Source of the DNA: Actinomycetes bacterium
GTDB lineage: Bacteria; Actinomycetota; Actinomycetes; Prado026
Reading direction: 5' to 3'
NCBI GenBank assembly: GCA_036770165.1
Contig: DAIPJR010000004.1
Coordinates: 1 to 22,064, forward strand
Length of the DNA: 22,064 nucleotides
Part shown: positions 3,597 through 16,099 of the stretch, one piece after another
Layout of the letters: every line of letters begins with the position of its first letter
Numbering within the stretch: position 1 is the stretch's first letter
Notes under the pieces: model-generated
The model's input: the letters and a program-made list of their open reading frames with translations, nothing else
The model's database searches: none
What the model was told of the DNA's origin: nothing
Translations under genes and position numbers: made by a program

Positions 3597-4922
3597 ATGG
3601 CCGAGGGCGCGGGGGTGACCGAGGACCTGTTCCGATCCGAGTCGGTACGGGTCCTCGGTTCCCTCATGCGCCGGTTCGGCAACCTGGACCTCGCCGAGGA
3701 CGCCTACCAGGACGCGTGCGTCGCCGCGCTGGAGACGTGGCCGCGGGACGGTACGCCGGCCAACCCCGGTGCCTGGCTCACGACCGTGGCCGGCAACCGG
3801 GCGCTCGACCGGATCCGCCGCGAGTCGGCGAGGCTGCCCAAGGAGGTCGAGGCCTCCGGGCTGCGACCGGGCTGGGGCCGGCGGGCCGCCTCCGCGCTCG
3901 AGGCCATCGACCTGACGGCCGGGCTGGAGGTTGACGGCGAGCCCGTCGACGCCCCGCTCGCCGACGACCAGCTGCGGCTGCTGTTCCTGTGCTGCCACCC
4001 CGCCCTCGCGTCCGAGGCGCAGATCGCGCTGACGCTTCGTACCGTCGGCGGACTCACGACCGGCGAGATCGCGCGTGCCTACCTGGTCCCGGAGTCGACG
4101 ATGGCCCAGCGCCTCGTCCGCGCCAAGCGAAAGATCGTGCTCGCCGGGATCCCGTTCCGGCTGCCCGAGGGGGACGAGCTGGCGGCCCGTACTGCGGCCG
4201 TCCTGCAGGTCGTCTACCTGGTCTTCAACGAGGGGTATGCGGCCAGCGGTACCGACACCGTGGTCCGCACCGACCTGTGCGTCGAGGCGGTACGGCTGTC
4301 GGCGCTGCTGGAGCAGCTGCTGCCGAAGGACGCCGAGGTCATCGGCCTCCGGGCCCTGCTGCTGCTGCACGACGCGCGCCGGGCCGCCCGGGTGGACAGC
4401 ACCGGGCGGCTTGTACCGCTGGACGAGCAGGACCGTGCGCAGTGGAGCTCGGCGCAGATCGCCCGCGGAGTCGCGATGGTGGAGCGGGCGCTGCAGCTCG
4501 GCCCGGTCGGCCCGTACCAGCTGCAGGCGTCGATCGCCGCCCTGCACGCCGAGGCTGAGTCGCCGCAGGCCACCGACTGGCCGCAGATCGTCGAGCTGTA
4601 CTCGCTCCTGGCGCGCATCGCCCCCGGGCCGCTCGTGACGCTGAACCGGGGGGTGGCCGTGGCGATGTGCGACGGGCCGGCGGCCGGCCTCGCCCTGCTC
4701 GACGCCCTCGAAGGATCGGGCGAGCTGGCCGGGCACCACCGGCTGCCGTCGGCCCGCGCACACCTGCTGGAGCAGCTCGGCCGGCGTAGCGACGCGCTGG
4801 CCGCGTACGACGCCGCGCTGGCCCTGGTCGACAACTCACCGGAGCGGGCCTACCTCACCGAGCGCCGCTCCCGCCTCTCCCGCCCTTCCCCGCCGATCGA
4901 GACGCTAGGCGAGGATCCGTGA
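3597..4922 (+). CDS. ECF sigma factor with a long C-terminal extension (ECF42-like, about 440 aa)
   Basis: Sigma-70 region 2 (DLAEDAYQDACVAALETW...AWLTTVAGNRALDRIRRE) and region 4 (LTTGEIARAYLVPESTMAQRLVRAKRKI) are followed by a roughly 250-aa helical TPR-like tail. The start could be ATG 3597 or GTG 3615. Confidence 0.8.
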   Translation: MAEGAGVTEDLFRSESVRVLGSLMRRFGNLDLAEDAYQDACVAALETWPRDGTPANPGAWLTTVAGNRALDRIRRESARLPKEVEASGLRPGWGRRAASALEAIDLTAGLEVDGEPVDAPLADDQLRLLFLCCHPALASEAQIALTLRTVGGLTTGEIARAYLVPESTMAQRLVRAKRKIVLAGIPFRLPEGDELAARTAAVLQVVYLVFNEGYAASGTDTVVRTDLCVEAVRLSALLEQLLPKDAEVIGLRALLLLHDARRAARVDSTGRLVPLDEQDRAQWSSAQIARGVAMVERALQLGPVGPYQLQASIAALHAEAESPQATDWPQIVELYSLLARIAPGPLVTLNRGVAVAMCDGPAAGLALLDALEGSGELAGHHRLPSARAHLLEQLGRRSDALAAYDAALALVDNSPERAYLTERRSRLSRPSPPIETLGEDP

Positions 4923-7403
4923 CCTCGTCGGGTCGTACGGCGGCTTCAGGCTCAGCCGGGCGGTCACGTGCTGCTCGGCGCAGTCGACGACGAACGTGGT
5001 CGACGCGAGCCACTCCGCCGTGACACCGTCCGCATGGTCGACGACCGCGAGCCCCACCGCGCCGCCCAGGGTGTAGCCATAGCCGGCCGCCCGGACGTAG
5101 CCCACCCACCTGCCATCGACCAGCAGGGGCTCATTGCCGAACAGCTGGACGGCGGGGTCGTCGAGGACGAGCGACACCATGGCGCTTCTGCGGGCGCCAG
5201 CCGCGCGCCGGGCGAGCAACGCGTCGCGCCCGACGAAGCCGCCGGGCTTGTCCCAGGCGACGGCGAAGCCGAGGCCGGCCGTCACCGGGTCGTCGGTGTT
5301 GTCGATGTCCACGCCGAAGTCGCGGTAGCCCTTCTCGAGCCGCAGCCCGCCCATGGCTGCCAGGCCTACCGGCCGGATGCCGAGATCGGTGCCGGCGGCC
5401 ATCAGCGAGTCGTAGAGCGCGGGCGCGTACTCGGTCGGTACGTGCAGCTCCCAGCCGAGCTCGCCGACGTACGTGACGCGCAGCGCGAGCACGCGGGCGT
5501 AGTCGAGCTCGATGGTCTGCGCGGTGAGGTACGGGAAGGCGTCGTTCGAGAGGTCGGCCGTGGTCAGCCGCGACAGCAGGTCGCGCGAGCGCGGTCCCTG
5601 GACGGACAGCAGGACCGTGCCCGAGGTGACGTCGGTGACGTAGACCTGTTCCCCAGCAACGGTTTCCCGCCGGATCATCGCGCGAACGCGGCGGTGGATG
5701 ATGTCGGAGGCGACGACGAGGAACTGCTCGTCGTCGAGCCGGGTGACCGTGAGGTCGGCCTGGATGCCACCGGAATGGTCGAGCCACTGGGTGTAGACGA
5801 CGCGGCCCACCTCGCGGGCCACGTCACCGGCCGAGAGCCGTCCCAGAACCGCCGCGGCGGCCGGTCCCTGGACGAGGTGCTTGGACATCAGCGTCATGTC
5901 CATGACACCCACCGCTTCGCGGACGGCCCGGTGCTCGGCGCCCACGAGGTCGAACGATGCCTGCCGCTCGAAGCTCATCGCGGGGTCGGCCGGGGTGACG
6001 CCGGGCCCCGCGAACCACTCCGGGTACTCCCAGCCGGCCGAGACGCCGAAGCGTGCCCCGGCCGCCATGAGCCGCTCGTGCAGCGGAGACCGCCGCACCC
6101 CTCTGGCCGTCGAGGGCGACCAGCCGGGGAAGGCCGCGTCGCCGAAGAGCACGCCGAGCTGCTCGACCGTACGTTCCGAGCGGAACCGGCGCGACACCTC
6201 GTGCGGCAGCGCCCGCTCGACCGCGTAGTGCGCCACGTCGACCGGCGGCACGCCGTCGACCAGCCACTGCGCGACGACCGATCCCACGCCGCCACCGAGC
6301 AGGATGCCGAGCGAGTTGAGCCCCGCGGCGACCCAGAAGTTGTCGAGCTCCGGCGCCGGCCCGAGCATCGGGTGCACGTCAGGGGTGAAGCTCTCCGGGC
6401 CGCAGAAGAACTTGCGGATGCCCACGTCGGTGAGCACCGGGATGCGCGCCATGGCCGCCTCGAGGTAGGGGCCGACGCGGTCCCAGTCGGGCGGCAGCTC
6501 GCCGAAGGCGAACTCGCGCGGCGCGCCGTCGATGCACCACGGCCCGGCCACCGGCTCGAACAGGCCGACGAGCAGCCCGTCGCCCTCCTCGCGGTAGTAC
6601 CCGTACCGGTCCGGGTCCTCGATGACCGGGAGGTCGCGGTGGACGCCCTCGAACGGCTCGGTCAGCAGGTAGTAGTGCTCGGCGGCCTGGAGCGGCACGT
6701 CGACCCCGGCCAGTGCCCCCACCTCGCGCCCCCACAGGCCTGCGCAGTTGACGACGTACTCGGCCTCGACCGTGCCGCGGTCCGTCACGACCCCCGTGAC
6801 GCGGCCGCCGGTTCGGGTGAAGCCGGTGACCGGAACGCCCTCGACGATCCGGGCGCCGCCCATGCGCGCACCCTTGGCCAGCGACATGCAGACGTCGACC
6901 GGGTTGGCCCGGCCCTCGTCGGCGACATGGAACCCGGCGAGGATGTCGTCGACCTTGGCGAACGGCCACATCGCCGCGACCTCAGCGGCGGAGATCTCGT
7001 TGTCCTCGACGCCGAACCCGCGCGCGAACGCGGCCTCGCGGCGCAGCGCTTCCAACCGGGCCGGGGTCGTCGCGAGCGAGATGTGCCCGATCGGCCGGAA
7101 TCCGGTGGAGAGTCCGGTCTCCTGCTCCAGTCCCGCGTACAGGTCCCGCGAGTAGCGGCTCATCCACAGCGCGGTCTCGTCGGCCATGCCGGCCGAGGTG
7201 ATGAGGCCGGCGGCGTGCCAGGTGGTCCCTGACGTCAGCTGGTGCCGCTCGAGCAGCAGCACGTCCCGCCAGCCGAGCCTGGTCAGGTGGTAGGCGACGC
7301 TCGCCCCGATGACCCCGCCGCCGACGATGACGACCTGAGCGCGTTCGGGCAGCGACGACGAGGGGGAGGCGGGCGTGACGGTCATGGCTGAATCATCGTT
7401 CAA
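4905..7403 (-). CDS. Dimethylglycine/sarcosine dehydrogenase family flavoenzyme (DAO FAD domain plus GcvT-like folate-binding domain)
   Basis: N-terminus has VVIVGGGVIGASVAYHL (Rossmann fold) and SGTTWHAAGL, the covalent-FAD histidine motif. The C-terminal half resembles an aminomethyltransferase (GcvT) domain. 832 aa. Start is TTG at 7403 or ATG at 7385. Confidence 0.85.
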   Translation of the reverse strand: MNDDSAMTVTPASPSSSLPERAQVVIVGGGVIGASVAYHLTRLGWRDVLLLERHQLTSGTTWHAAGLITSAGMADETALWMSRYSRDLYAGLEQETGLSTGFRPIGHISLATTPARLEALRREAAFARGFGVEDNEISAAEVAAMWPFAKVDDILAGFHVADEGRANPVDVCMSLAKGARMGGARIVEGVPVTGFTRTGGRVTGVVTDRGTVEAEYVVNCAGLWGREVGALAGVDVPLQAAEHYYLLTEPFEGVHRDLPVIEDPDRYGYYREEGDGLLVGLFEPVAGPWCIDGAPREFAFGELPPDWDRVGPYLEAAMARIPVLTDVGIRKFFCGPESFTPDVHPMLGPAPELDNFWVAAGLNSLGILLGGGVGSVVAQWLVDGVPPVDVAHYAVERALPHEVSRRFRSERTVEQLGVLFGDAAFPGWSPSTARGVRRSPLHERLMAAGARFGVSAGWEYPEWFAGPGVTPADPAMSFERQASFDLVGAEHRAVREAVGVMDMTLMSKHLVQGPAAAAVLGRLSAGDVAREVGRVVYTQWLDHSGGIQADLTVTRLDDEQFLVVASDIIHRRVRAMIRRETVAGEQVYVTDVTSGTVLLSVQGPRSRDLLSRLTTADLSNDAFPYLTAQTIELDYARVLALRVTYVGELGWELHVPTEYAPALYDSLMAAGTDLGIRPVGLAAMGGLRLEKGYRDFGVDIDNTDDPVTAGLGFAVAWDKPGGFVGRDALLARRAAGARRSAMVSLVLDDPAVQLFGNEPLLVDGRWVGYVRAAGYGYTLGGAVGLAVVDHADGVTAEWLASTTFVVDCAEQHVTARLSLKPPYDPTRSRILA

Positions 7404-7423
7404 TACCCGCCCCCCGCGCTAGG

Positions 7424-7466
7424 CCTGACGATTCGTTTGATCTACTACGCCGAATCGTCCAGCTAG
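7424..7466. repeat. Copy 1 of a roughly 40-nt hairpin-forming repeat, core cctgacgattcgtttgatcta
   Basis: The 21-mer is identical to 15491-15511. A 9-bp inverted repeat GACGATTCG / CGAATCGTC lies at 7427-7435 and 7451-7459. The element sits 6 nt after the SIMPL gene stop and 20-38 nt before the dehydrogenase start. Confidence 0.7.
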
Positions 7467-7471
7467 TGGCC

Positions 7472-8335
7472 TCACCCGAAGGCGAACACCACCGTGACGG
7501 TCACGGTCACGTCCTGGGACCCGGCGGCGATCGGCGCGGACGCAGCGCCAGAGACCGCCACGGGCGACATCGTGTCGTACTGGTAGACGGGCGACGGGTT
7601 CGTGACGACCTCGGAGATGCTGATGACGGATCCGAGGGAGCGACTCGCGGCTCGCGCGTACTGCTCGGCCTTCGTCTTCGCGTCGACGAACGCGTGGTCC
7701 CGGGCGGCCGAGACGAGGGCGCCGGTGTCCTCGAGGTCGAGGCTGATCCCGTTGATGCGTACGGAGTTCCCGCCGGCCGCGGCGGCGGACGTGATCACCT
7801 GGCCGGCCTTGCCGAGGTCACGCAGCTTGGCGGTGACGCCTTCGGTCACGACGTACCCGTGCGGGATCGGCTGGCCGGACTTGCCGTACGAGTAGTCCGG
7901 CTGGATGGACAGGCCCGAGGTCTGGAGGTCCTTGTCGGCCACGCCTCCGGCCCGCAGCGCCTTCTGCACCCTGGCCTCGATCGTGCTGGCGCTGCCGAGC
8001 GCCGCGGAGACGCTGCTGCCGTTGGCCGTGACGCCGAGGTCCAGCACGAGCGTGTCGGGCTTGCCCGTCACCTTGCCGAGGCCGGTGACGGTGATCCCGC
8101 TCGGCTGGCTGGTGCCGGTGGGCCCGGCCGCGACGGCTGAACCGCCGGTGCCCGCCGCGCCGTTCCCCGACGTGGTGGCAGCGGAGGCGACCGATCCGCC
8201 GCTGTGCCAGGTACCCAGGAGGTACGCGACGATGAACGCGAGGGCCACGATGATGGCGGTGGCCGTCCGCCGAGGCGTCAGTGTGATCGTCATGGCGGTG
8301 GGACGGCTGCCGAAGGCGAGCGGTTCCGTCCGCAT
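7472..8335 (-). CDS. SIMPL-domain (DUF541) secreted or membrane-anchored protein
   Basis: N-terminal TM/signal anchor (TATAIIVALAFIVAYLLG), a Gly/Ser/Thr-rich linker, then a SIMPL-like body (GKPDTLVLDLGVTANG...GISLDL). An alternative ATG start lies at 8293. Confidence 0.65.
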   Translation of the reverse strand: MRTEPLAFGSRPTAMTITLTPRRTATAIIVALAFIVAYLLGTWHSGGSVASAATTSGNGAAGTGGSAVAAGPTGTSQPSGITVTGLGKVTGKPDTLVLDLGVTANGSSVSAALGSASTIEARVQKALRAGGVADKDLQTSGLSIQPDYSYGKSGQPIPHGYVVTEGVTAKLRDLGKAGQVITSAAAAGGNSVRINGISLDLEDTGALVSAARDHAFVDAKTKAEQYARAASRSLGSVISISEVVTNPSPVYQYDTMSPVAVSGAASAPIAAGSQDVTVTVTVVFAFG

Positions 8336-8376: not shown

Positions 8377-9189
8377 ATGGAGGGGTTGCACCGGCTGGTC
8401 GGCTTCGGTGACCACGTCTACGTAGCGACGTCGCGGCGCTACCTCACGCTGTCCACCGTCGTCCTCGACGGTCAGGGTGGTGCGCTGGTCGTCGACCCCG
8501 CCTGGGACGAGGACGAGCTGGCGGCGATACCAGCCGACCTTCTGGCGCTCGGGCTGGTGGCCGTGGCCGGGCTGGCGACGCACGTCCACTACGACCACGT
8601 CCTGTGGCACCCCGACCTCGGTACGGTCCCGCGCTGGACCTCACCGTGGACGGCCAAGGCGGTGGTCGACCACCGGGACGAGGTGCTCCGCCCGCTCCTC
8701 GGCGACCTGCCCGACGAGCTCCTCGGGCTGGCGGCTCGGCTCGAGCCCCTGCCGGACCGCGCAACGGCTCCGCCCACCTACGTCGTGCCCTGGTCCGGCC
8801 CGGAGCTGCTCTGCCACCAGCACGACGCGCACGCGCCTGCCCACATCGCGGTCGAGATCGTAGCCGCGCGCGTCCTGCTGGCCGGTGACATGCTCAGCGA
8901 CGCCGAGCTGCCGATGCCGGACGACCACGACATGACGCTGGAGCCGTACCTCGCCGGGCTCGACCTGCTGGCGCCGATCGTCGCCCGCGTCGACCTCCTC
9001 GTGCCGGGGCATGGCACGCCGACGTACGAACCAGTCGCACGGCTCGACGCCGACCGGCGGTACCTGGACGCTGTCCTCTCGGGGCGACGGGTCGACGACG
9101 CGCGGCTCGGCTACCCGGACATGGCCGAGCTGCACGAGGCCAACCTGCGCCGGGCCCGAGGCGAGCCGGCCCTCGGTGAGCCTGTCTAG
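8377..9189 (+). CDS. MBL-fold metallo-hydrolase
   Basis: RBS GGGAGG sits 8 nt before the ATG at 8377. Carries the THVHYDH metal-binding motif and a later HGTP His. The stop shares a CTAG tetranucleotide with the convergent downstream gene. Confidence 0.75.
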   Translation: MEGLHRLVGFGDHVYVATSRRYLTLSTVVLDGQGGALVVDPAWDEDELAAIPADLLALGLVAVAGLATHVHYDHVLWHPDLGTVPRWTSPWTAKAVVDHRDEVLRPLLGDLPDELLGLAARLEPLPDRATAPPTYVVPWSGPELLCHQHDAHAPAHIAVEIVAARVLLAGDMLSDAELPMPDDHDMTLEPYLAGLDLLAPIVARVDLLVPGHGTPTYEPVARLDADRRYLDAVLSGRRVDDARLGYPDMAELHEANLRRARGEPALGEPV

Positions 9190-10185
9190 GGAGCCGCGCT
9201 GATCACCTTGACCGAGCTGCTGCCGTCGACGACGTAGACCTTGCCGGTCAGCGGGCTCGCTGCGACGTCGAGGGGCGACCCCCCGACGTGCACCCTCGCG
9301 ACGACGTGCAGCGTGCATCCGTCCACGACGTAGACGGCGCCGGCGTCGTAGCTCGCCACGAAGACCAGATGGGTCTGCGGGTCGACTGCCACTGCCAGGG
9401 ACGTGCCGCCGTGGGCCGCGTCGACGTGCACCCGGCCGACGACCCGGGCGGTCCGGACGGAGATCTCGGTGAGGGTGTCGTCCTGGGGGCTCGTCACGTA
9501 GACGAGCCCGGACCGCTGGTCGATGCCGACGTCGCCGCCGGCACGGCCCAGCGCGACCGTCGACGTGACCTTGTTCGTACGCTCGTCCACGACCCAGACC
9601 GAGCTGCCGCCGACGAGGAACACCTTGTGGGCCAACGGGTCCACGGCGAGCTGGAGCGGCTGGTCGGGCAAGGTGATCCTCGCGCGCACCTGGTGCGTCA
9701 CCACGTCGGCGACGGTGACGACATCGTCGTACACGCTGGTGGCGTACACGCGTCCGGTCACCGGGTCGACGGCCACCGCACCCGGCGCCCCCAGCCCGAG
9801 CGGGCCGGCGACGTCGATCACGGTCGCGACGTGCGTGGCCTCGTCGACGGCATACAGGTCGTCGTCGATCCCGGCGGCGAGCACCGTGCGCGTCGTCGGG
9901 TCGTCGGCCAGCCCGTACTCGCCGCAGCAGGGACCGTGGAGGGTCGCGCCGAGGGAGCCGGAAGCCCTGATCGCCGTGATGCGGCCGTCGTTGCCGTTGC
10001 CCACGTAGGCCGTGCCCGTACGGGAGTCGGCGGTCACGAGGACGGCACCGCCGGGCACGTGCACGGCGGTCACCGGGAAGGGGCTTGCCGCCAGAGCCGG
10101 CCCAGCCGTGAGCGGCAAGGCGCAGAGCGCGGCTGCGGCCAGCAGGGCGGCGGGCAGCACCGCTACGAGCCGGTGTCGGATCATC
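9186..10185 (-). CDS. Secreted YVTN-family beta-propeller repeat protein
   Basis: ATG at 10185 is preceded by the RBS AAGGGGGA. Signal peptide MIRHRLVAVLPAALLAAAALCALPLTAGPALA. Repeated VYVTS / VYATS / VFLVGG / VYVVDG blades. The ORF-track start at 10499 is too early (Arg-rich junk). Confidence 0.75.
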
Positions 10186-10375
10186 GGAGTCCCCCTTCGT
10201 GCGGTCGTCGGGGCGTCAGGTCGAGCGTCCCACGCGAGGAGAGGCGGCCGGACCGGCTCTACGTACAAACTTGCGTGCACTCCTTGACAGGCGCTCCGGC
10301 GCGCGAGGACCGTGATCGTCGCGGCCCGACCACGGAGGCGGGGGTCTGGCCGGTTGCGCACCAGCGGAGGTCGCC

Positions 10376-10945
10376 TTGTCGTCTGCACTCCGCGCCGCGA
10401 CGCGCGGCGCCACCCTCGCCTGTGCCGTGTTCGCCGGCTGCCTCGCCGTCGCCGCGTGCGGCTCGTCCAGCGCGCCGAGCCCGGCCGCGTCGACCGCACC
10501 GGCGAGCGCGGCCGCCTCGTCTCCGGCCGCGTCGGCTGCCGGGTCCACCGCTGCGGCGGCCGGCCAGGTGCCCACGTCGTGCGCGGCGGTCCCCGAGTCG
10601 CTGATCGCGTCCTACGCCGGCGCCGTCAAGTTCGTGACCTCGCTCGGGCACGCCGGTCAGGTCAGCTGCGAGTTCGCGAGCGCCGACGCGAAGAGCATCG
10701 TCATCGTGAACATCGGTCAGGGCACGCCCGCGCTGTTCGCGGTCGCCAAGGCGGCGGCCGCCGGAGGGGGCCGGACGATCACGCCCATCACAGGCCTCGG
10801 GGCGCAGGCGTTCAGCATCAGCAGGGCCGGTGTGGTCCGCGGCGTGGAAGCGCTGACCGACTCGAACCTGCTCGTGTCGGTCACCTCGACGTTGACCGCG
10901 ACGCAGGACGAGTCGCTGATCAAGGCGCTGATGCAGCTGTTCTGA
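10376..10945 (+). CDS. Small lipoprotein (DUF3558-like)
   Basis: TTG start 5 nt after GGAGG. Lipobox-like LAVAACG. The mature N-terminus is Ala/Ser/Pro-rich and low complexity, followed by conserved Cys residues. About 189 aa. Confidence 0.6.
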   Translation: MSSALRAATRGATLACAVFAGCLAVAACGSSSAPSPAASTAPASAAASSPAASAAGSTAAAAGQVPTSCAAVPESLIASYAGAVKFVTSLGHAGQVSCEFASADAKSIVIVNIGQGTPALFAVAKAAAAGGGRTITPITGLGAQAFSISRAGVVRGVEALTDSNLLVSVTSTLTATQDESLIKALMQLF

Positions 10946-11030
10946 CGGGGCCCGTCGGCGACAGGACGGCGTTCCGGTCGTCAGGGCGGCCGAGGCGTAC
11001 GCTGCCCGCAGCCAACGCGAGGGAGCGGTC

Positions 11031-12152
11031 ATGCCAGCCTTGAGGATCCGCGCGGGCCTGCTCGGGTGCGTGACGATCGCTGCCACGGTGACCGCGCTCC
11101 TCGTCCCGGCATCGGTGGCGTCCGCGGCGTCCGTGACTCCGGCTGCGACCACTGCGGCGCTCTGCCATCCCTCCAGCGGGCACGCGGCCTCCCTGCCCTC
11201 GCAGGGCAGCTTCGTGATCGGTGAAGGGCGGGTCTGGGAGGTCGCCGGCTGCGCTCTGCTGTACGTGTCGTCGTGGACGCCGTTCGGAGGTGGGCACCCC
11301 ATCACCGCCATCTCGACGGCTGACTTCCTCGCCGCGGTCGGCAACAAGATCGCCGACGGTGTCTTCATCCGCACGTTGCAGGACGGTCGGGTCTATCGCA
11401 CGGTCGGCGGGGCACCGGTCTACGTGTCCACCTGGGCGGCGTTCGGTGGACCGCAGGCGTCGGTCCCGATCGACGGGGCCGACCTCAGCCATGCCGGACT
11501 CGGCTTCCCGTGGTTCGCGGTGAGCTCCTCGCCCTCGTCCTTGACGCCGCAGTTCGTACGCACCCAGGTCGGGCGGGTCTACGAGATCGCCCACGGCACC
11601 CCGCTATACGTGACCAGCTGGGCGTCCCTCGGTGGTCCCCGGCCGACTGTGCTCGTCGACGAGACCGCCATCGATCGAGCCGGTGACCCGGGTCCGTGGC
11701 GGTTCCTCCACCGCTACCTCGCCGACGGGGACTTCCTGGAGGCGATCTTCTTTCCCGGCGACATCGTCGAGATGTACGTGATCGCCGGCGGCGCACCGAT
11801 CTACCTTCCGACGCTGGCCAACCTGCCCGCGGTCGACGTCGTCATCAAGATCAGCCATGACACCGTCGCGCGCGCCGGGAGCGGCGTCCAGTACGACCAC
11901 CTGAGGGCCCAGCCGGTCGACGGGACGTTCCTGTACGGCGTCTACGGTTCGACCGGAGGCCCCGGCATCCCGTCGCCGCTGTTCCACACGTACTGGACCA
12001 GTGGCGGTGCCGCTGTTCCAGTGACGAACGCTGCCAGCTGTCCCGGCGGTGGGGTCGCCATCGAGGACGAGGCCGTCGTGAAGGCCGGGACCGGCGGACG
12101 GTACGACCACCTGGCCGCCCTGCCGGCGCACCCGCCGACGCCGCCCTGCTAG
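11031..12152 (+). CDS. Secreted tandem-repeat protein of unknown family
   Basis: RBS GAGGGAG lies 6 nt upstream. Signal peptide present. About five internal repeats of roughly 40 aa with the consensus f[VI]R...GRVYe..gGAP[VI]YV[ST]sWA.fGGP. A duplicated AG[ST]G..YDHL[RA]A.P motif occurs near the C-terminus. Confidence 0.65.
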   Translation: MPALRIRAGLLGCVTIAATVTALLVPASVASAASVTPAATTAALCHPSSGHAASLPSQGSFVIGEGRVWEVAGCALLYVSSWTPFGGGHPITAISTADFLAAVGNKIADGVFIRTLQDGRVYRTVGGAPVYVSTWAAFGGPQASVPIDGADLSHAGLGFPWFAVSSSPSSLTPQFVRTQVGRVYEIAHGTPLYVTSWASLGGPRPTVLVDETAIDRAGDPGPWRFLHRYLADGDFLEAIFFPGDIVEMYVIAGGAPIYLPTLANLPAVDVVIKISHDTVARAGSGVQYDHLRAQPVDGTFLYGVYGSTGGPGIPSPLFHTYWTSGGAAVPVTNAASCPGGGVAIEDEAVVKAGTGGRYDHLAALPAHPPTPPC

Positions 12153-12199
12153 CTGCCGCCCTGCTAGCTGCCGGCCAGCTGCGGCCAGCTGCCGGCTAG
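12140..12199. repeat. Short tandem duplications at a convergent 3' junction (gccgccctgctag x2, ggccagctgc x2)
   Basis: Direct repeats are visible at 12140-12152 and 12155-12167, and at 12172-12181 and 12182-12191. Each first unit ends in CTAG. The final CTAG (12196-12199) supplies the TAG stop of the minus-strand flotillin gene. Confidence 0.6.
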
Positions 12200-13629
12200 G
12201 TCGCAGGCCCCTGCTCGGCTGCGTCCTCGCGCTTCTCGACCACCCGTCGAACGTGCGGCAGCTCGGGGGTCTTCGCCGCATCGCGCCTGGAATCAGTCGT
12301 CGCCGGCGGAGCCGAGTGCTCGGCCAGCAGGCTGCCTCGCAACGACTCGTACACCGCCAGGCCCTGTCCGACCACGCCGGTGATCGTCTGGCCGACGCCC
12401 TCGGCCCCGTTGAGGACCGTGAGGTTCGCTCCGGACAGGCTGCCCGCCGCGGCGCTGACCAGCTGGGGGAGCACGTCGATGAGCTTGTTGGCGGCGATGA
12501 GCGCCTGGTTGCCGTCGTTCAGAGCCTCGGCGCGGGCGTTGATCGCGTCGGCCTCTGCCGCGGCCACCGTCCGCTGCGAGTAGGCCTCGCCGTCGGCTGC
12601 CAGCTTGGCCGACTCGGAGGCGGCTGCTGCCGCCACCTTGACCGCATCGCCCTCGGCGTCGGCCAGGGTGCGCCGCTTGTGCGACTCCGCCTCGGCGGAC
12701 AGCTTCGTCGTGTCACGGCTCGCCTCGGCGAGGGTGCGCTGCCGGTAGGCCTCGGCCTCGGTCTTGAACTTCGTCGTGTCGCGCTCGGCTTCGGCGAGGG
12801 TGCGCTGGCGGTAGGCCTCCGCGTCCGCCGGACGGCGTACCTCGGCCTCGAGCTTCTTCTCCGTGAGGGCGGCCTCGCGCTCGGCGAGCAGGGTCTGCTG
12901 GGCGATGACCTCCTGAGTCGCCTGTGCCTGGGCGAGCGGACCGGACTGCGCCGCCCTCGCCTTGGCCTGCTCGACCTCTGCGGCAAAGCCGGCCTGCTTG
13001 ATCTCGGTGTCCCGGACGTACTCGGCCCGGAGCGCGGCCGCCTCCTGCTCGCGCTGGGTCGCCTCCTGGTCGGCCTTCGCGGCGGCGATCCGCGCGGCCG
13101 AGGCGACGGCGGCGGCGTGCGGTGCCGCGATGTTGGTGATGTACCCGGTCGAGTCCTCGATCTCCTGGACCTGGAGGGAGTCGACGACGATGCCGAGCTT
13201 CTCCATCTCGCCGTGGCTCCCGTCGCGGACCTCCTGGGCGAGCCGGTCGCGCTCGCGGATGATCTCCTCGACAGTCAGGCTGCCGATGATCGAGCGCAGG
13301 TGGCCGGCGAAGATCCGTCCGACCAGCTCCTCCATGCGGTCCTGCTCGGCGAGGAACCGGCGCGCCGCGTTGGCGATCGACACCGGGTCGTCGCCGACCT
13401 TGAACGCCGCCACGGCGCGGATCGACAGCGTGATGCCCTGCGTGGTGACGCAGTCCTCGGCGATCTCCGACTCTCGAAGCGACAGCGAGAGGATGCGGGC
13501 CTTCTGCTTCACCGGGAGGACGAAGCTGCCGTGCCCGGTGACGATGCGGAACTGCGTGTCCCCGGTCCGCCGGCGGGAGCCCGAGATCAGCAGGGCCTCG
13601 TTCGGTGCGGGTACGTGCCAGAACAACAT
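12196..13629 (-). CDS. Flotillin-like SPFH/Band-7 protein (FloT/YqiK type)
   Basis: ATG at 13629 with RBS AGGAG. N-terminal SPFH domain, followed by a long Ala/Glu/Arg/Gln-rich coiled-coil region (repeated EAYRQRTLAEA units) typical of flotillins. Confidence 0.85.
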   Translation of the reverse strand: MLFWHVPAPNEALLISGSRRRTGDTQFRIVTGHGSFVLPVKQKARILSLSLRESEIAEDCVTTQGITLSIRAVAAFKVGDDPVSIANAARRFLAEQDRMEELVGRIFAGHLRSIIGSLTVEEIIRERDRLAQEVRDGSHGEMEKLGIVVDSLQVQEIEDSTGYITNIAAPHAAAVASAARIAAAKADQEATQREQEAAALRAEYVRDTEIKQAGFAAEVEQAKARAAQSGPLAQAQATQEVIAQQTLLAEREAALTEKKLEAEVRRPADAEAYRQRTLAEAERDTTKFKTEAEAYRQRTLAEASRDTTKLSAEAESHKRRTLADAEGDAVKVAAAAASESAKLAADGEAYSQRTVAAAEADAINARAEALNDGNQALIAANKLIDVLPQLVSAAAGSLSGANLTVLNGAEGVGQTITGVVGQGLAVYESLRGSLLAEHSAPPATTDSRRDAAKTPELPHVRRVVEKREDAAEQGPAT

Positions 13630-13924: not shown

Positions 13925-14320
13925 CTAGTGCCGCCGCCGGAGGACGACAAGGCTCACCGTGTATGCCAGACCGCCGACCGCTGCGATGACTCCGTACCCG
14001 CCGATGTTGCCGCCGTCCCGTGCGGCGGACACGATCGCACCGATGATCGCGGCGAGCCCCATGGCCAGTCCTGCGAACGCGGTGGCGTCCTGGTCGAGCC
14101 GGCGCTGCCGCTCGTCGCCACCGGCACGCAGGATGGCACCGGTGTCGCTGTCCCGGCCCGACCAGACGTATGCGACGGCGGCGGCGACGGCGTAGAACGC
14201 CACGAGCCCCACTGCGAGCCCGTGCTGGCCGCCGATCCAGGTGGCGACGGCCAGGCCGCCGCCACCGACGACCAGCACGGCTGCGGTCGCGCCCCGATGG
14301 CCGGTCACGGTCTGGGTCAT
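13925..14320 (-). CDS. Small four-TM membrane protein (DUF2178-like partner of the XRE regulator)
   Basis: 131 aa with four hydrophobic segments. Its ATG overlaps the regulator's stop (ATGA). Confidence 0.6.
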   Translation of the reverse strand: MTQTVTGHRGATAAVLVVGGGGLAVATWIGGQHGLAVGLVAFYAVAAAVAYVWSGRDSDTGAILRAGGDERQRRLDQDATAFAGLAMGLAAIIGAIVSAARDGGNIGGYGVIAAVGGLAYTVSLVVLRRRH

Positions 14321-14532
14321 GACTCCTCCTCGTCCGGGCTGAAGATGTCCTCGACGGCGCTCTCGAAGGCCCGGGCTATCGCGAAGGCCAGGGGCAGCGA
14401 CGGCAGGTAGCGGCCCGTCTCGATCGAGTTGATCGTCTGCCGGGACACCCCGAGCGCGGCGCCGAGGTCGGCCTGAGAAAGGCCACCTGCTGTACGCAGC
14501 TCGCGGACCCGGTTCTTCACGGTGTCAAGCAT
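14317..14532 (-). CDS. XRE-family (Cro/CI-type) HTH transcriptional regulator, YozG-like
   Basis: MLDTVKNRVRELRTAGGLSQADLGAALGVSRQTINSIETGRYLPSLPLAFAIARAF is a canonical HTH_XRE sequence. The ATG lies at the centre of a perfect palindrome. An alternative GTG start is at 14541. Confidence 0.85.
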   Translation of the reverse strand: MLDTVKNRVRELRTAGGLSQADLGAALGVSRQTINSIETGRYLPSLPLAFAIARAFESAVEDIFSPDEEES

Positions 14533-14568
14533 GCTTGACACGGCTCAAGGTGTCAAGGGTCCTTGTCA
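14522..14568. promoter_or_regulatory. Two operator-like 7-4-7 inverted repeats, TGTCAAG-N4-CTTG(A/T)CA, in a divergent promoter region
   Basis: GTGTCAAGCATGCTTGACAC (14522-14541) is a perfect 20-bp palindrome. A second site, TGTCAAGggtcCTTGTCA, lies at 14551-14568, with a half-site gcTCAAG between them. The second site overlaps a candidate -35 TTGTCA. TATGTT at 14587-14592 lies 7 nt before the GTG at 14600, a geometry consistent with a leaderless promoter. Confidence 0.6.
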
Positions 14569-14599: not shown

Positions 14600-16099
14600 G
14601 TGACGCGACCGACCCACGACCTGCTGTTCGGCTCGTTCATCACCCCGTCGGCGGGGAGCCCGGAGGTCGCGGTCGCGCTGGCACAGCTGTCCGAGCGGGT
14701 CGGGCTGGACCTGGTCACGTTCCAGGACCACCCGTACCTGCCGCAGTTCGTCGACACGTGGACGCTGCTGTCCTACGTCGCGGCTCGCACCGACGTGATC
14801 CGCCTCGCGCCCAACGTGCTCAACCTGCCGCTGCGGCAGCCGGTCGTCCTCGCCAGGAGCGCGGCCAGCCTCGACCTTCTCAGCGATGGGCGCTTCGAGC
14901 TGGGCATCGGCGCAGGCGCGTTCTGGGACGCCATCGAGGCCTCGGGTGGACGCCGTCTCTCCGCTGGCCAGGCGATCGCGGCGCTGGAGGAGGCCATCCA
15001 CATCGTGCGCGAGGTGTGGGCAGCGGACGAGCGCGGCGGCGTGCGCGCCGACGGCACCTACTACCAGGTCGCGGGCGCGAAACGCGGGCCCGCTCCGGCG
15101 CACGACATCGCGGTGTGGGTCGGCGCGTACAAGCCTCGGATGCTCGCCCTCGTCGGCCGGGTAGCGGACGGCTGGTTGCCGTCGCTGTCCTACCTCGACG
15201 GCATCGAGCAGCTCGCGGACCTGAACGCCGTCATCGACGAGGCTGCGTCGTCGGCCGGCCGCGACCCCGCCGGGATCCGGCGGCTGCTCAACATCAACGG
15301 GTCGTTCGGGACGGCGTCGAAAGGCCTGCTGCAGGGGCCGGCGGACCAGTGGGTCGAGGAGCTCACCGGCATCGCGCTCGACTACGGCACGAGCGCGTTC
15401 ATCCTGGGCTCCGACGACCCTCGGATGCTCCAGGTGTTCGCGCAGGAGGTGGCCCCGGCAGTCCGCGAGGCCCTGGTCGACGACGTTCCACCTGACGATT
15501 CGTTTGATCTAGCACCACCAATCGTCAGGTCTAACCGCACCCAGATCTGGGACGAGGCGGAGCGACCGCACGGGCCGGATCCCGAGCCCGGTCGTACGTA
15601 CACCGCGCGCGGCCGTGCCGTCGGCGCCCACCTGGTCGAGGTGCACGACCACCTGCGCCGCGAGCTGGACCAGGTGCGCGACCTCGTCCGGCAGGTGCGC
15701 GAAGGGATCGTCGAGATCGGTGCGGCACGGTCGACGCTCAACGAGATGGCCCTTCGGCAGAACAGCTGGACGCTCGGCGGCTTCTGCGAGTCCTACTGCC
15801 GGGTGGTCACCGGCCACCACTCGCTCGAGGACGAGGCGGTGTTCCCGCACCTGCGGGCGAGCGACCCGCGTCTCGCGCCCGTGATCGACCGCCTCGAGGA
15901 GGAGCACCGCGCGATCCACCACGTGCTCGACCAGGTCGACGCGTCGCTCGTGCACCTGGTCGCCCACCCGGACGACGTCGACCGGGTGGGCGACGCTGTG
16001 GATCTGCTTGCCGACACCCTGCTCTCGCACCTGTCGTACGAGGAGCACGAGCTCGTAGAACCGTTGACCCGCCTAGGCTTCTACGACAACCAGGTCTGA
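14600..16099 (+). CDS. Fusion protein: LLM-class (luciferase-like) flavin-dependent oxidoreductase plus C-terminal hemerythrin-like (HHE) domain
   Basis: Residues 1 to about 295 are a luciferase-like monooxygenase fold (LNLPLRQPVVLARSAASLDLLSDGRFELGIGAG...). Residues from about 335 to 499 carry hemerythrin metal-ligand motifs (VHDHLRRE, GHHSLEDEAVFPHL, EEEHRAIHHVLD, LSHLSYEEHE). There is no stop codon between the two domains. The start is GTG 14600; the in-frame ATG at 14531 lies inside the operator palindrome. Confidence 0.7.
   Translation: MTRPTHDLLFGSFITPSAGSPEVAVALAQLSERVGLDLVTFQDHPYLPQFVDTWTLLSYVAARTDVIRLAPNVLNLPLRQPVVLARSAASLDLLSDGRFELGIGAGAFWDAIEASGGRRLSAGQAIAALEEAIHIVREVWAADERGGVRADGTYYQVAGAKRGPAPAHDIAVWVGAYKPRMLALVGRVADGWLPSLSYLDGIEQLADLNAVIDEAASSAGRDPAGIRRLLNINGSFGTASKGLLQGPADQWVEELTGIALDYGTSAFILGSDDPRMLQVFAQEVAPAVREALVDDVPPDDSFDLAPPIVRSNRTQIWDEAERPHGPDPEPGRTYTARGRAVGAHLVEVHDHLRRELDQVRDLVRQVREGIVEIGAARSTLNEMALRQNSWTLGGFCESYCRVVTGHHSLEDEAVFPHLRASDPRLAPVIDRLEEEHRAIHHVLDQVDASLVHLVAHPDDVDRVGDAVDLLADTLLSHLSYEEHELVEPLTRLGFYDNQV
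15491..15529. repeat. Copy 2 of the hairpin repeat, embedded in frame in the linker of the LLM-hemerythrin ORF
   Basis: Shares the identical 21-mer cctgacgattcgtttgatcta. Has a perfect 10-bp inverted repeat CCTGACGATT / AATCGTCAGG. In the ORF frame it translates as PDDSFDLAPPIVR. Confidence 0.7.

What the first reader, a model, noticed from the sequence alone, without database searches (positions are those of the whole stretch)
7424..7466. A roughly 40-nt hairpin repeat present twice (7424-7466 and 15491-15529), with an identical 21-mer and compensatory stem changes
cctgacgattcgtttgatcta occurs exactly at both loci. That is far beyond chance for 22 kb. Each copy folds into a stem-loop whose arms differ between the copies: 9 bp GACGATTCG/CGAATCGTC in copy 1 and 10 bp CCTGACGATT/AATCGTCAGG in copy 2. 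Complementarity is nevertheless preserved in both, which points to selection on structure. Copy 1 lies between two co-oriented genes, SIMPL and the dehydrogenase, like an intercistronic REP or MIRU-type element. Copy 2 is intragenic. This may be a small uncatalogued palindromic repeat family in this genome.
Basis: seen in the sequence. Interest (0 to 1): 0.7.

Follow-up and report, generated by a model that had tools for sequence, protein, structure and literature searches.

The report
Palindromic repeat tied to nuclease gene
The two hairpins are copies of a real, dispersed ~51-nt palindromic repeat in an uncultured actinomycete, and the same repeat brackets a gene for a DNA-binding nuclease in every relative examined, which suggests a repeat-plus-enzyme partnership like REP/RAYT built on a different enzyme.

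Summary
The 21-mer is exact at both sites, and each lies in a 51-nt imperfect palindrome (7418-7468, 15485-15535). The "compensatory changes" do not hold: the 5' arms are identical and only the 3' arms differ. The repeat-family idea is right. The assembly holding this organism carries 11 copies on 10 contigs, at gene boundaries, often supplying a neighbour's stop codon. Copy 2 is read in frame in an interdomain linker. Both window copies are old. Copy 1 is at the same site in relatives. Copy 2's core, with three very rare codons, survives in relatives whose synonymous sites are saturated, so the core is selected as DNA. On another contig, two inverted copies bracket a gene for an AbiEi-type DNA-binding module fused to a Vsr/DUF559 nuclease domain. 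Four syntenic orthologues keep that bracket. Distant homologues in Jiangella and Tsukamurella are bracketed by different palindromes, and Tsukamurella also has solo copies. AbiEi proteins are known to bind inverted repeats at their own genes. My best reading is that the element is this protein's binding site, spread REP-like. Binding and mobilisation are inferred, not shown.

The parts
7418..7468 (+). Copy 1, complete 51-nt palindromic element. It is antisense to the surrounding minus-strand genes. Its 34-nt core segment (7426-7459) ends 12 nt from the SIMPL stop codon (the outer flank reaches to 3 nt from it). The element lies 32 nt (ATG at 7385) or 14 nt (alternative TTG at 7403) upstream of the DAO/GcvT start.
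   Evidence: Family model score 60.3 bits, E = 5e-16. Fold. Present at the orthologous site in L061, L062 and L063.
7426..7444 (+). Copy 1 conserved core TGACGATTCGTTTGATCTA: the 5' arm followed by the invariant TTTGATCTA.
   Evidence: Alignments A2 and A4. The core is invariant in the copy-1 orthologues.
7452..7468 (+). Copy 1 3' arm (GAATCGTC) and decayed outer flank (CAGCTAGTG).
   Evidence: The relatives L061 and L063 have a better stem at this site, and the window copy differs by a substitution in this arm.
15485..15535 (+). Copy 2, complete 51-nt element. It is sense-oriented and translated in frame as ...PPDDSFDLAPPIVRS... in the linker between the luciferase-like and hemerythrin domains.
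   Evidence: Family model score 67.7 bits. Translation, domains, linker alignment, orthologous DNA.
15493..15511 (+). Copy 2 conserved core, read as GAC GAT TCG TTT GAT CTA. This is the only frame of this strand without a stop codon: TGA occurs twice in one frame and TAG once in another.
   Evidence: Sequence. Rare codons TTT (1.6% of Phe), GAT (5.3% of Asp) and CTA (0.6% of Leu) are conserved in L001, L002 and L003.
14600..16099 (+). Host gene of copy 2: luciferase-like (LLM) oxidoreductase fused to a hemerythrin domain. The fusion is ancient and was not created by the element.
   Evidence: Pfam Bac_luciferase plus Hemerythrin. Two-domain homologues across Micromonosporaceae and other families, and a 499-aa gene call P0001.
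7472..8335 (-). SIMPL/DUF541 gene upstream of copy 1 (context).
   Evidence: Pfam SIMPL, E = 5e-50.
4905..7385 (-). FAD oxidoreductase (DAO) plus GcvT aminomethyltransferase fusion gene downstream of copy 1 (context).
   Evidence: Pfam DAO, FAO_M, GCV_T and GCV_T_C.

Best explanation
The two hairpins belong to a dispersed family of ~51-60-nt imperfect palindromes in an uncultured, Sporichthyaceae-related actinomycete lineage. The layout is: outer flank, 5' arm TGACGATTCG, invariant TTTGATCTA, about 7 variable nt, a 3' arm such as (C)GAATCGTC, outer flank. Shown: the family is real, and its copies sit at gene boundaries or, once, in frame inside a gene. Copies are inherited vertically, and the core is under nucleotide-level purifying selection. 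Two inverted copies bracket one gene in every relative examined. That gene encodes an AbiEi-type winged-helix DNA-binding module fused to a Vsr/DUF559 (PD-(D/E)XK) nuclease domain. Distant homologues of the gene are bracketed by their own, different palindromes. Inferred: the element is the cognate binding site of that protein. The inference rests on analogy with AbiEi and Rv2827c, which bind pairs of inverted repeats in front of their own genes. On this reading the copy upstream of the gene is its operator, and the solo copies, including the two in this window, are further binding sites. Such sites can only have arisen by copying and insertion. More speculative: the nuclease domain nicks or cuts at these sites and thereby spreads or maintains the copies, as RAYT transposases are thought to do for REP/REPIN sequences. 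Locally, copy 1 is a conserved occupant of the SIMPL-DAO spacer, and copy 2 contributes 13-17 residues to a flexible interdomain linker.
Against: No binding or cleavage has been shown, so the protein-element link rests on conserved gene-repeat geometry and analogy. The best-conserved segment, GTTTGATCTA, lies on one side of the spacer only. The 3' arm is much more variable, unlike the two equivalent half-sites of described AbiEi operators. The Jiangella and Tsukamurella palindromes have 1-4-nt loops rather than 15 nt. Mobility is not demonstrated. No target-site duplications were identified, and no recent insertion polymorphism was seen. The only presence/absence differences are between old lineages (L004 and L064). 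The copy count is modest (11 found with a strict pattern), and the source genome could not be scanned as a whole. The 10 contigs come from one assembly, but I did not prove they are one genome. The bracket could instead be an operator plus a transcription stop for an inserted gene. No AbiEii toxin gene is adjacent, so the protein is not a canonical AbiE system and its DNA-binding behaviour may differ.
Confidence: 0.55

Rival explanations
1. An ordinary selfish miniature element (MITE- or REP-like), moved by some unrelated transposase encoded elsewhere. On this reading the wHTH-nuclease gene merely sits between two insertions or was carried in as cargo, and the element has no cognate relationship with it.
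For: The element is palindromic, lies at gene boundaries, carries stop codons that make 3'-end insertions tolerable, and has one in-frame insertion. No theme links the neighbouring genes. An assembly breaks at a copy (L048/L057).
Against: The bracket is conserved in five orthologous loci with 67-90% protein identity. It recurs with different palindromes around distant homologues in two other genera. Coincidence three times over is unlikely. The core is under purifying selection, and 135 kb contained no half-decayed copies, which does not fit neutral decay of junk. No transposase was seen near any copy.
Confidence: 0.2
2. A transcription-factor regulon. On this reading the copies are operators through which a regulator, possibly the same AbiEi-like protein, controls the adjacent genes, and regulation of neighbours is why the copies are kept.
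For: Most copies lie within about 15-70 nt of a downstream start codon. There are about ten or more sites per genome, and the core is conserved. AbiEi-family proteins are autoregulators (PMC7319586).
Against: The neighbours are unrelated housekeeping genes: RodA, MurI, PEP carboxylase, RNase H, an ABC-F ATPase and others. Several copies overlap stop codons or lie between convergent genes. One copy is inside a coding linker. A 51-nt identical site cannot arise independently at a dozen promoters, so insertion is still required. No sigma-70-like promoter is found at either window copy.
Confidence: 0.12
3. An RNA-level element: a terminator, attenuator, mRNA-stabilising hairpin or processing site acting in the transcripts.
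For: The hairpins are stable on both strands. Many copies lie just after stop codons. There is moderate covariation in the stem.
Against: Orientation relative to transcription is mixed (8 sense, 4 antisense; p = 0.39), although the conserved part is asymmetric. There is no T-run and no terminator-like hit. Rfam has no match. Only ~63% of stem positions pair. One copy is in the middle of an ORF.
Confidence: 0.08
4. A chance match or a one-off neutral duplication of a short patch within this window.
For: Only two copies are visible in the window itself.
Against: No matches in shuffles. There are nine further copies in the same assembly, and both window sites are conserved in orthologues.
Confidence: 0.01

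Closest known systems
REP/REPIN sequences and their RAYT transposases (Proteobacteria)
   Same: Both are short imperfect palindromes dispersed in short intergenic gaps. In both, a gene is flanked by the repeats in inverted orientation. Each gene lineage has its own repeat type. Gene and repeats are inherited vertically at fixed sites (PMC3337134; here).
   Different: The flanked protein here is not a Y1/HUH IS200-like transposase. It is an AbiEi-type wHTH module plus a Vsr/DUF559 PD-(D/E)XK nuclease. Copy number is tens at most, not hundreds. No REPIN doublets were seen. The host phylum is Actinomycetota. Whether the gene is single-copy in the genome was not established.
AbiEi / Rv2827c antitoxin-autorepressors and their inverted-repeat operators
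   Same: The N-terminal ~190 residues match AbiEi by sequence profile and by fold. A pair of inverted arms lies within about 125 nt upstream of the gene's start. This resembles the 23-bp inverted-repeat pairs, 3 or 13 bp apart, that these proteins bind (PMC7319586).
   Different: No AbiEii/DUF1814 toxin gene is adjacent. The protein carries an extra nuclease domain. A second copy follows the gene, and solo copies are scattered in the genome. The conserved sequence is asymmetric.
Rickettsia palindromic elements (RPEs) and other intragenic MITEs
   Same: A palindromic repeat is inserted in frame in a protein-coding gene and translated, as for copy 2 (PMC10969869; here).
   Different: RPEs are ~150 bp, specific to Rickettsia, and mostly intragenic. 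Here the element is ~51 nt and 1 of 11 copies is intragenic. No sequence relationship to RPEs was tested.
   Same: Both occur in actinobacteria, in spacers between genes of one operon, and overlap neighbouring stop codons. The MIRU features are from my own knowledge and were not checked in a paper here.
   Different: MIRUs are tandem arrays of 40-100-bp units and are not hairpins. Here each locus holds a single palindromic unit.
Vsr-like (EDxHD-type) homing endonucleases such as I-Bth0305I
   Different: The gene is not inside an intron or intein. It is free-standing, syntenic and bracketed by palindromes.

Membership tests
REP/RAYT (REPIN) system | Short imperfect palindromes dispersed mainly in extragenic DNA | tested here: met
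   11 copies on 10 contigs of the source assembly, 10 of them extragenic or overlapping gene ends.
REP/RAYT (REPIN) system | An associated gene flanked by the repeats in inverted orientation, with each gene lineage specific to one repeat type | tested here: met
   L052 and the orthologues L065-L068. Jiangella and Tsukamurella homologues have their own palindromes.
REP/RAYT (REPIN) system | The associated protein is a Y1/HUH tyrosine transposase related to IS200 TnpA | tested here: not met
   The protein is AbiEi-like plus a Vsr/DUF559 nuclease by fold and by profile. There is no Y1_Tnp match.
REP/RAYT (REPIN) system | High copy number (tens to hundreds) and REP doublets (REPINs) | tested here: inconclusive
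   11 copies were found with a strict pattern, and the whole genome could not be scanned. The only pair lying close together is the one bracketing the gene.
MITE | Terminal inverted repeats | tested here: met
   The element is itself a palindrome, and the arms reach ~20 bp in L051.
MITE | Target-site duplications and a related autonomous IS encoding a transposase | tested here: inconclusive
   I saw no duplications when reading the flanks, but I ran no formal search and the element ends are not defined precisely. No recognised transposase is near any copy. The bracketed nuclease gene could be the autonomous partner, but that is unproven.
Rickettsia palindromic elements | In-frame insertion of a palindromic repeat into ORFs | tested here: met
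   Copy 2 is read in frame and is conserved in L001-L003.
Rickettsia palindromic elements | Repeat of ~150 bp from the RPE families of Rickettsia | tested here: not met
   The element is 51 nt and the host is an actinomycete.
MIRU | Tandem arrays of 40-100-bp units in operon spacers | tested here: not met
   Each locus holds a single unit. Tandem Repeats Finder reports no array at 7418-7468 or 15485-15535.
AbiE (type IV toxin-antitoxin) operator | Inverted repeats upstream of a gene of the AbiEi family | tested here: met
   The upstream copy ends 62-65 nt before the ATG of a protein matching AbiEi.
AbiE (type IV toxin-antitoxin) operator | An adjacent AbiEii (DUF1814 nucleotidyltransferase) toxin gene | tested here: not met
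   The neighbours are cysM and murI, or HTTM and a glycosyltransferase, or LysE and an NAD(P)H-binding protein.
AbiE (type IV toxin-antitoxin) operator | The protein binds the repeats | not testable with these tools
   This needs a gel-shift or footprinting experiment.
Intrinsic terminator | G+C-rich stem followed by a T-run | tested here: not met
   No terminator-like sites at either copy on either strand.
Any Rfam RNA family | A covariance-model match at or near the gathering score | tested here: not met
   No hits at gathering score in the window. Only noise (E >= 0.5) in permissive mode.

The most novel reading that the evidence does not exclude
Actinomycetes harbour a previously undescribed class of repeat-plus-enzyme systems analogous to REPIN/RAYT. 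A vertically inherited gene encoding an AbiEi-type DNA-binding module fused to a Vsr/DUF559 nuclease is bracketed by its cognate palindrome. Through sequence-specific binding and nicking, the protein seeds and maintains dispersed solo palindromes that settle at gene ends and occasionally inside coding linkers. This would assign a function to the large, uncharacterised family of AbiEi_4-DUF559 proteins (at least 3,221 homologues). It would also explain small palindromic repeat families in high-GC genomes.
Probability: 0.35. Interest if true: 0.85.

Novelty: new variant of a known kind. Interest (0 to 1): 0.65.

Why it matters
Small palindromic repeats are common in bacterial genomes, but the REP/RAYT pair is the main case I know of where the repeats can be tied to a partner enzyme. 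Here a repeat family in an uncultured actinomycete shows three things at once. Its core is conserved at the nucleotide level across saturated synonymous divergence. It tolerates translation inside a protein. It keeps a physical association with one gene, a DNA-binding nuclease of unknown function. That association recurs in two other genera with different repeats, so it is a directly testable hypothesis for a protein family with thousands of members. It also offers a possible second, independent origin of a REP/RAYT-like relationship. On the practical side, the repeat breaks metagenome assemblies (L048/L057) and donates stop codons and C-terminal residues to housekeeping proteins, which matters for annotation.

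Tried and rejected
1. attL/attR of an inserted island. The two copies are direct repeats 8,067 bp apart, but no integrase or recombinase lies between them, and the family is dispersed.
2. The element created the LLM-hemerythrin fusion. Rejected, because the fusion is widespread and older than the element.
3. Copy 2 is native coding DNA and copy 1 is a stray patch copied from it. This was my reading. It was overturned when nine more copies appeared.
4. Shared cargo next to copies. The ~1-kb stretches beside the L049, L052 and L059 copies are unrelated real genes that my GC2 filter had hidden.
5. A regulon theme among neighbouring genes. None was found.
6. Promoter or terminator. No hits.
7. A known RNA family. 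None.
8. The genome-contig scan with the 18-mer. It gave 14 hits, about the chance level, mostly coding D-D-S-F-D-L (for example in SAM methyltransferases). The source MAG is not in that collection, and only L040 was related.
9. Viral contigs. The 29 pattern hits all fall in one low-GC phage gene encoding DDWFDLD, and there are no homologues of the nuclease.
10. Antisense pairing between the two window transcripts. Copy 1 is transcribed antisense and copy 2 sense, giving 21 nt of complementarity. I did not pursue this. The mixed orientations across the family suggest it is a by-product, but it is not excluded.
11. Pfam and NCBIfam on the bracketed protein gave only a sub-threshold AbiEi_4 hit. 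Its identity was settled by structure and PADLOC.

Full report
**Observation.** The 21-mer CCTGACGATTCGTTTGATCTA is present exactly at 7424-7444 and 15491-15511 on the + strand. No match occurred in 100 dinucleotide-preserving shuffles, even with 3 mismatches allowed. The similarity continues to 36 nt at 86% identity, including a shared AATCGTC (family D18). The 5' arm is identical in the two copies and only the 3' arm differs. The differences are therefore not compensatory. Each copy is a differently eroded version of a longer palindrome.

**Gene context in the window.** This is high-GC DNA, so I called genes by GC3 and Pfam. Copy 1 lies in the 86-nt spacer between the minus-strand SIMPL gene (7472-8335) and the DAO/GcvT gene (4905-7385), antisense to both. 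Copy 2 lies in a 499-525-aa ORF with a luciferase-like domain (residues 46-258) and a hemerythrin domain (residues 370-512). It falls in the linker and is read as PPDDSFDLAPPIVRS. That two-domain architecture is shared by all listed homologues, from Micromonosporaceae, Streptosporangiaceae and other families, so the element did not create the fusion. No recombinase lies between the two direct copies.

**Copy 2 is old and its core is selected as DNA.** Relatives at 82-85% protein identity (L001-L003) carry ...GAC GAT TCG TTT GAT CTA G... in the same linker. A fourth relative at the same distance (L004) has an unrelated linker. Between the window and these relatives, fourfold-degenerate sites are only 48-54% identical, which is essentially saturated at this GC3. 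Even so, the core is 20/20 identical in L001. The three rare codons TTT, GAT and CTA make up 1.6%, 5.3% and 0.6% of their codon families in this window, a joint probability of 5e-6. All three are kept in all three relatives. Protein-level constraint cannot explain this.

**It is a real dispersed family.** The exact 18-mer scan of one genome per species gave 14 hits, which is chance level. Most of them encode D-D-S-F-D-L, and the source genome is not in that collection. One related copy was found in a Sporichthyaceae MAG (L040), in the spacer between an E2 acyltransferase gene and a C-N hydrolase gene. A pattern fitting all six instances known at that point (TGAC-N6-TTTGATCTA-NNNC-N5-AYC-GTC) found 13 metagenome loci. 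Eleven come from one assembly, JGI24140J50213. Two of those reproduce the window's own copies with identical flanks (L053, L060). With an extra copy in L052, that makes 11 copies on 10 contigs. I did not prove that all 10 contigs belong to one genome. The best-preserved copy (L051) shows a stem of about 20 bp, so the full element is ~51-60 nt. A covariance model finds every known locus at 51-68 bits. It finds no other site above 11 bits in 135 kb and only the two copies in the window with filters off. Rfam has nothing.

**Placement.**
- The core TGA is the stop codon of the upstream gene in L048, L049 and L051.
- In L059 an opposite-strand gene stops at the TAG formed by the core's CTA.
- In L049 both convergent genes end inside the element.
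- Other copies lie 12-13 nt beyond a stop codon or in front of a start codon.
- RodA (...HMRRYA*) and a PAP2-like protein (...DDRAS*) take their last residues from the element.
- The neighbours are unrelated housekeeping genes.
- Orientation relative to transcription is mixed: 8 sense, 4 antisense.
- There is no promoter-like or terminator-like signal at either window copy, and no tandem array.

On the element's own strand only one reading frame lacks a stop codon, and that is the frame used in copy 2.

**Copy 1 is also old.** Three contigs from relatives (SIMPL 83-86% identical) keep an 85-86-nt SIMPL-DAO spacer with the element in place and an invariant core. The spacer is 92% identical, against 70% and 83% at fourfold sites of the flanking genes versus L061/L062 (p between 1e-6 and 0.015). 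Against the closer L063 the excess is not significant. A more distant relative (L064) has no copy at its SIMPL locus.

**Structure.** Across 14 copies there is no covariation. With 24 copies, including protein-ascertained diverged ones, pairing and two-sided changes exceed the shuffles: 63.5% versus 59.0% paired (0 of 500 shuffles reach it), 48 versus 33 cells with two-sided changes (1 of 500), and a score of 0.216 versus 0.165 (3 of 500). Clear examples are ACGATT/AATCGT changing to ACGCTT/AAGCGT in L067, and GACGGTTG/CAACCGTC in L066. Several rows are orthologues, so I rate this as moderate evidence. The strongest conservation is not in the stem. It is GTTTGATCTA, on one side of the spacer, invariant in 23 of 24 copies.

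**The link to a gene.** In L052 two copies in inverted orientation, with cores facing outward, tightly bracket a 325-aa ORF with lower GC3. Its four closest homologues (67-90% identity) are syntenic orthologues, in the order cysO-cysM, the gene, then murI-rph-rdgB. One of them is from the same MAG as L040. All four are bracketed in the same way. The upstream copy ends about 62-65 nt before the ATG, and the downstream copy starts at or within a few nt of the stop codon. The ERZ1700618 lineage has the bracket but lacks copy 1 at its sampled SIMPL locus. This suggests, without proving, that the bracket is the family's oldest site.

**Generality.**
- A 46%-identical homologue in Jiangella mangrovi, with different neighbours, is bracketed by 46-50-nt palindromes of unrelated sequence. 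The upstream neighbour's stop codon lies inside the hairpin.
- A 27%-identical 'DUF559 domain-containing protein' in Tsukamurella tyrosinosolvens is bracketed by 42-nt palindromes that are 93% complementary to each other. The upstream one ends 61 nt before the start codon.
- The same Tsukamurella palindrome occurs as solo copies at two other loci, one between convergent and one between divergent housekeeping genes.

**Interpretation.** AbiEi and Rv2827c bind pairs of 23-bp inverted repeats, spaced 3 or 13 bp apart, just upstream of their own genes (PMC7319586). The element has that format and that position relative to the bracketed gene. I therefore infer that it is the protein's cognate site. 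A dozen near-identical 51-nt sites cannot arise independently, so they must have spread by insertion. The arrangement parallels REP/RAYT: the gene is flanked by inverted repeats, each gene lineage has its own repeat type, and inheritance is vertical (PMC3337134). The enzyme, however, is not a Y1/HUH transposase. The in-frame copy parallels the Rickettsia palindromic elements (PMC10969869). Binding, cleavage and mobility are all untested. I found no paper in the searchable library describing this association, which does not prove that none exists.

**Verdict.**
- The repeat-family interpretation is right.
- Confidence that the family is real is about 0.95.
- Confidence that the element is the protein's cognate site is about 0.55.
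- Confidence that the nuclease spreads or maintains the copies is about 0.3-0.35.

Noticed in passing
L067 about 9944-9954; L069 2949-2959; L066, L068, L052 and L065 at the equivalent position: A DnaA-box-like motif lies between the upstream bracketing hairpin and the start of the wHTH-nuclease gene. It reads TTGTCCACAGG in both L067 and the distant Jiangella locus, TTTTCCACAC in L066 and L068, TTATCCCCAG in L052, and TTGTCCCCAG in L065. It may be part of the gene's promoter or a second binding site.
   Followed up: partly
L048 (contig _10000063) and L057 (contig _10000518): Two contigs of the same assembly end at, and overlap across, the same copy of the element with identical flanks. The repeat appears to break the metagenome assembly there.
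   Followed up: partly
L041 (Nocardioides oceani) and L044 (Janibacter sp. G56): Both carry the 18-mer with at least 75 nt of identical flanking sequence although they belong to different genera. Locus GC is 62-63% and there is no hairpin. This looks like shared mobile DNA that encodes ...DEDDSFDLLS....
   Followed up: no
L005-L033 (IMG/VR contigs): A conserved gene of low-GC phages encodes D-D-W-F-D-L-D using TGACGATTGGTTTGATCTAGA. It accounts for most of the 29 viral pattern hits and is unrelated to the element.
   Followed up: no
window 12140-12173: A perfect 15-nt tandem repeat, GCCGCCCTGCTAGCT x 2.3, lies at the 3' end of the 11031-12152 (+) ORF and in the short spacer before the convergent flotillin-like gene (12196-13629, -).
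   Followed up: no
window 12548-12828: The SPFH/flotillin-like gene contains four ~50-nt repeats with 66- or 99-nt spacing at 68-76% identity. This is presumably a coiled-coil repeat region (family D1).
   Followed up: no
window 9186-13629 compared with L002, L003 and L061: The block of beta-propeller-like, unknown and flotillin-like genes between the MBL gene and the XRE/LLM-hemerythrin genes is absent from the distant relatives L002 and L003. A related arrangement (Band_7, DUF3558, a 332-aa ORF) is present in the close relative L061.
   Followed up: partly
window 14317-14541 (-) and 14600-16099 (+): A small XRE-family HTH gene is divergently paired with the LLM-hemerythrin gene. The pairing is conserved in L001, L003, L004 and L061, which suggests a dedicated regulator.
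   Followed up: no
L070, L071 and L072 (Tsukamurella tyrosinosolvens NCTC13231 'plasmids' 12, 9 and 22): Records labelled as plasmids carry core housekeeping genes (nrdF, pntB, a TrmH-family methyltransferase) and are typed non-mobilizable. They are probably chromosome fragments of a fragmented assembly.
   Followed up: no
L064 and L067 (ENA ERZ1700618): Many conserved genes appear split or shortened: DAO/GcvT is 479 aa, recR is in two pieces, and ask is truncated. This suggests a frameshift-rich assembly, so weak element scores there (16.7 and 33 bits) may partly reflect sequence errors.
   Followed up: no
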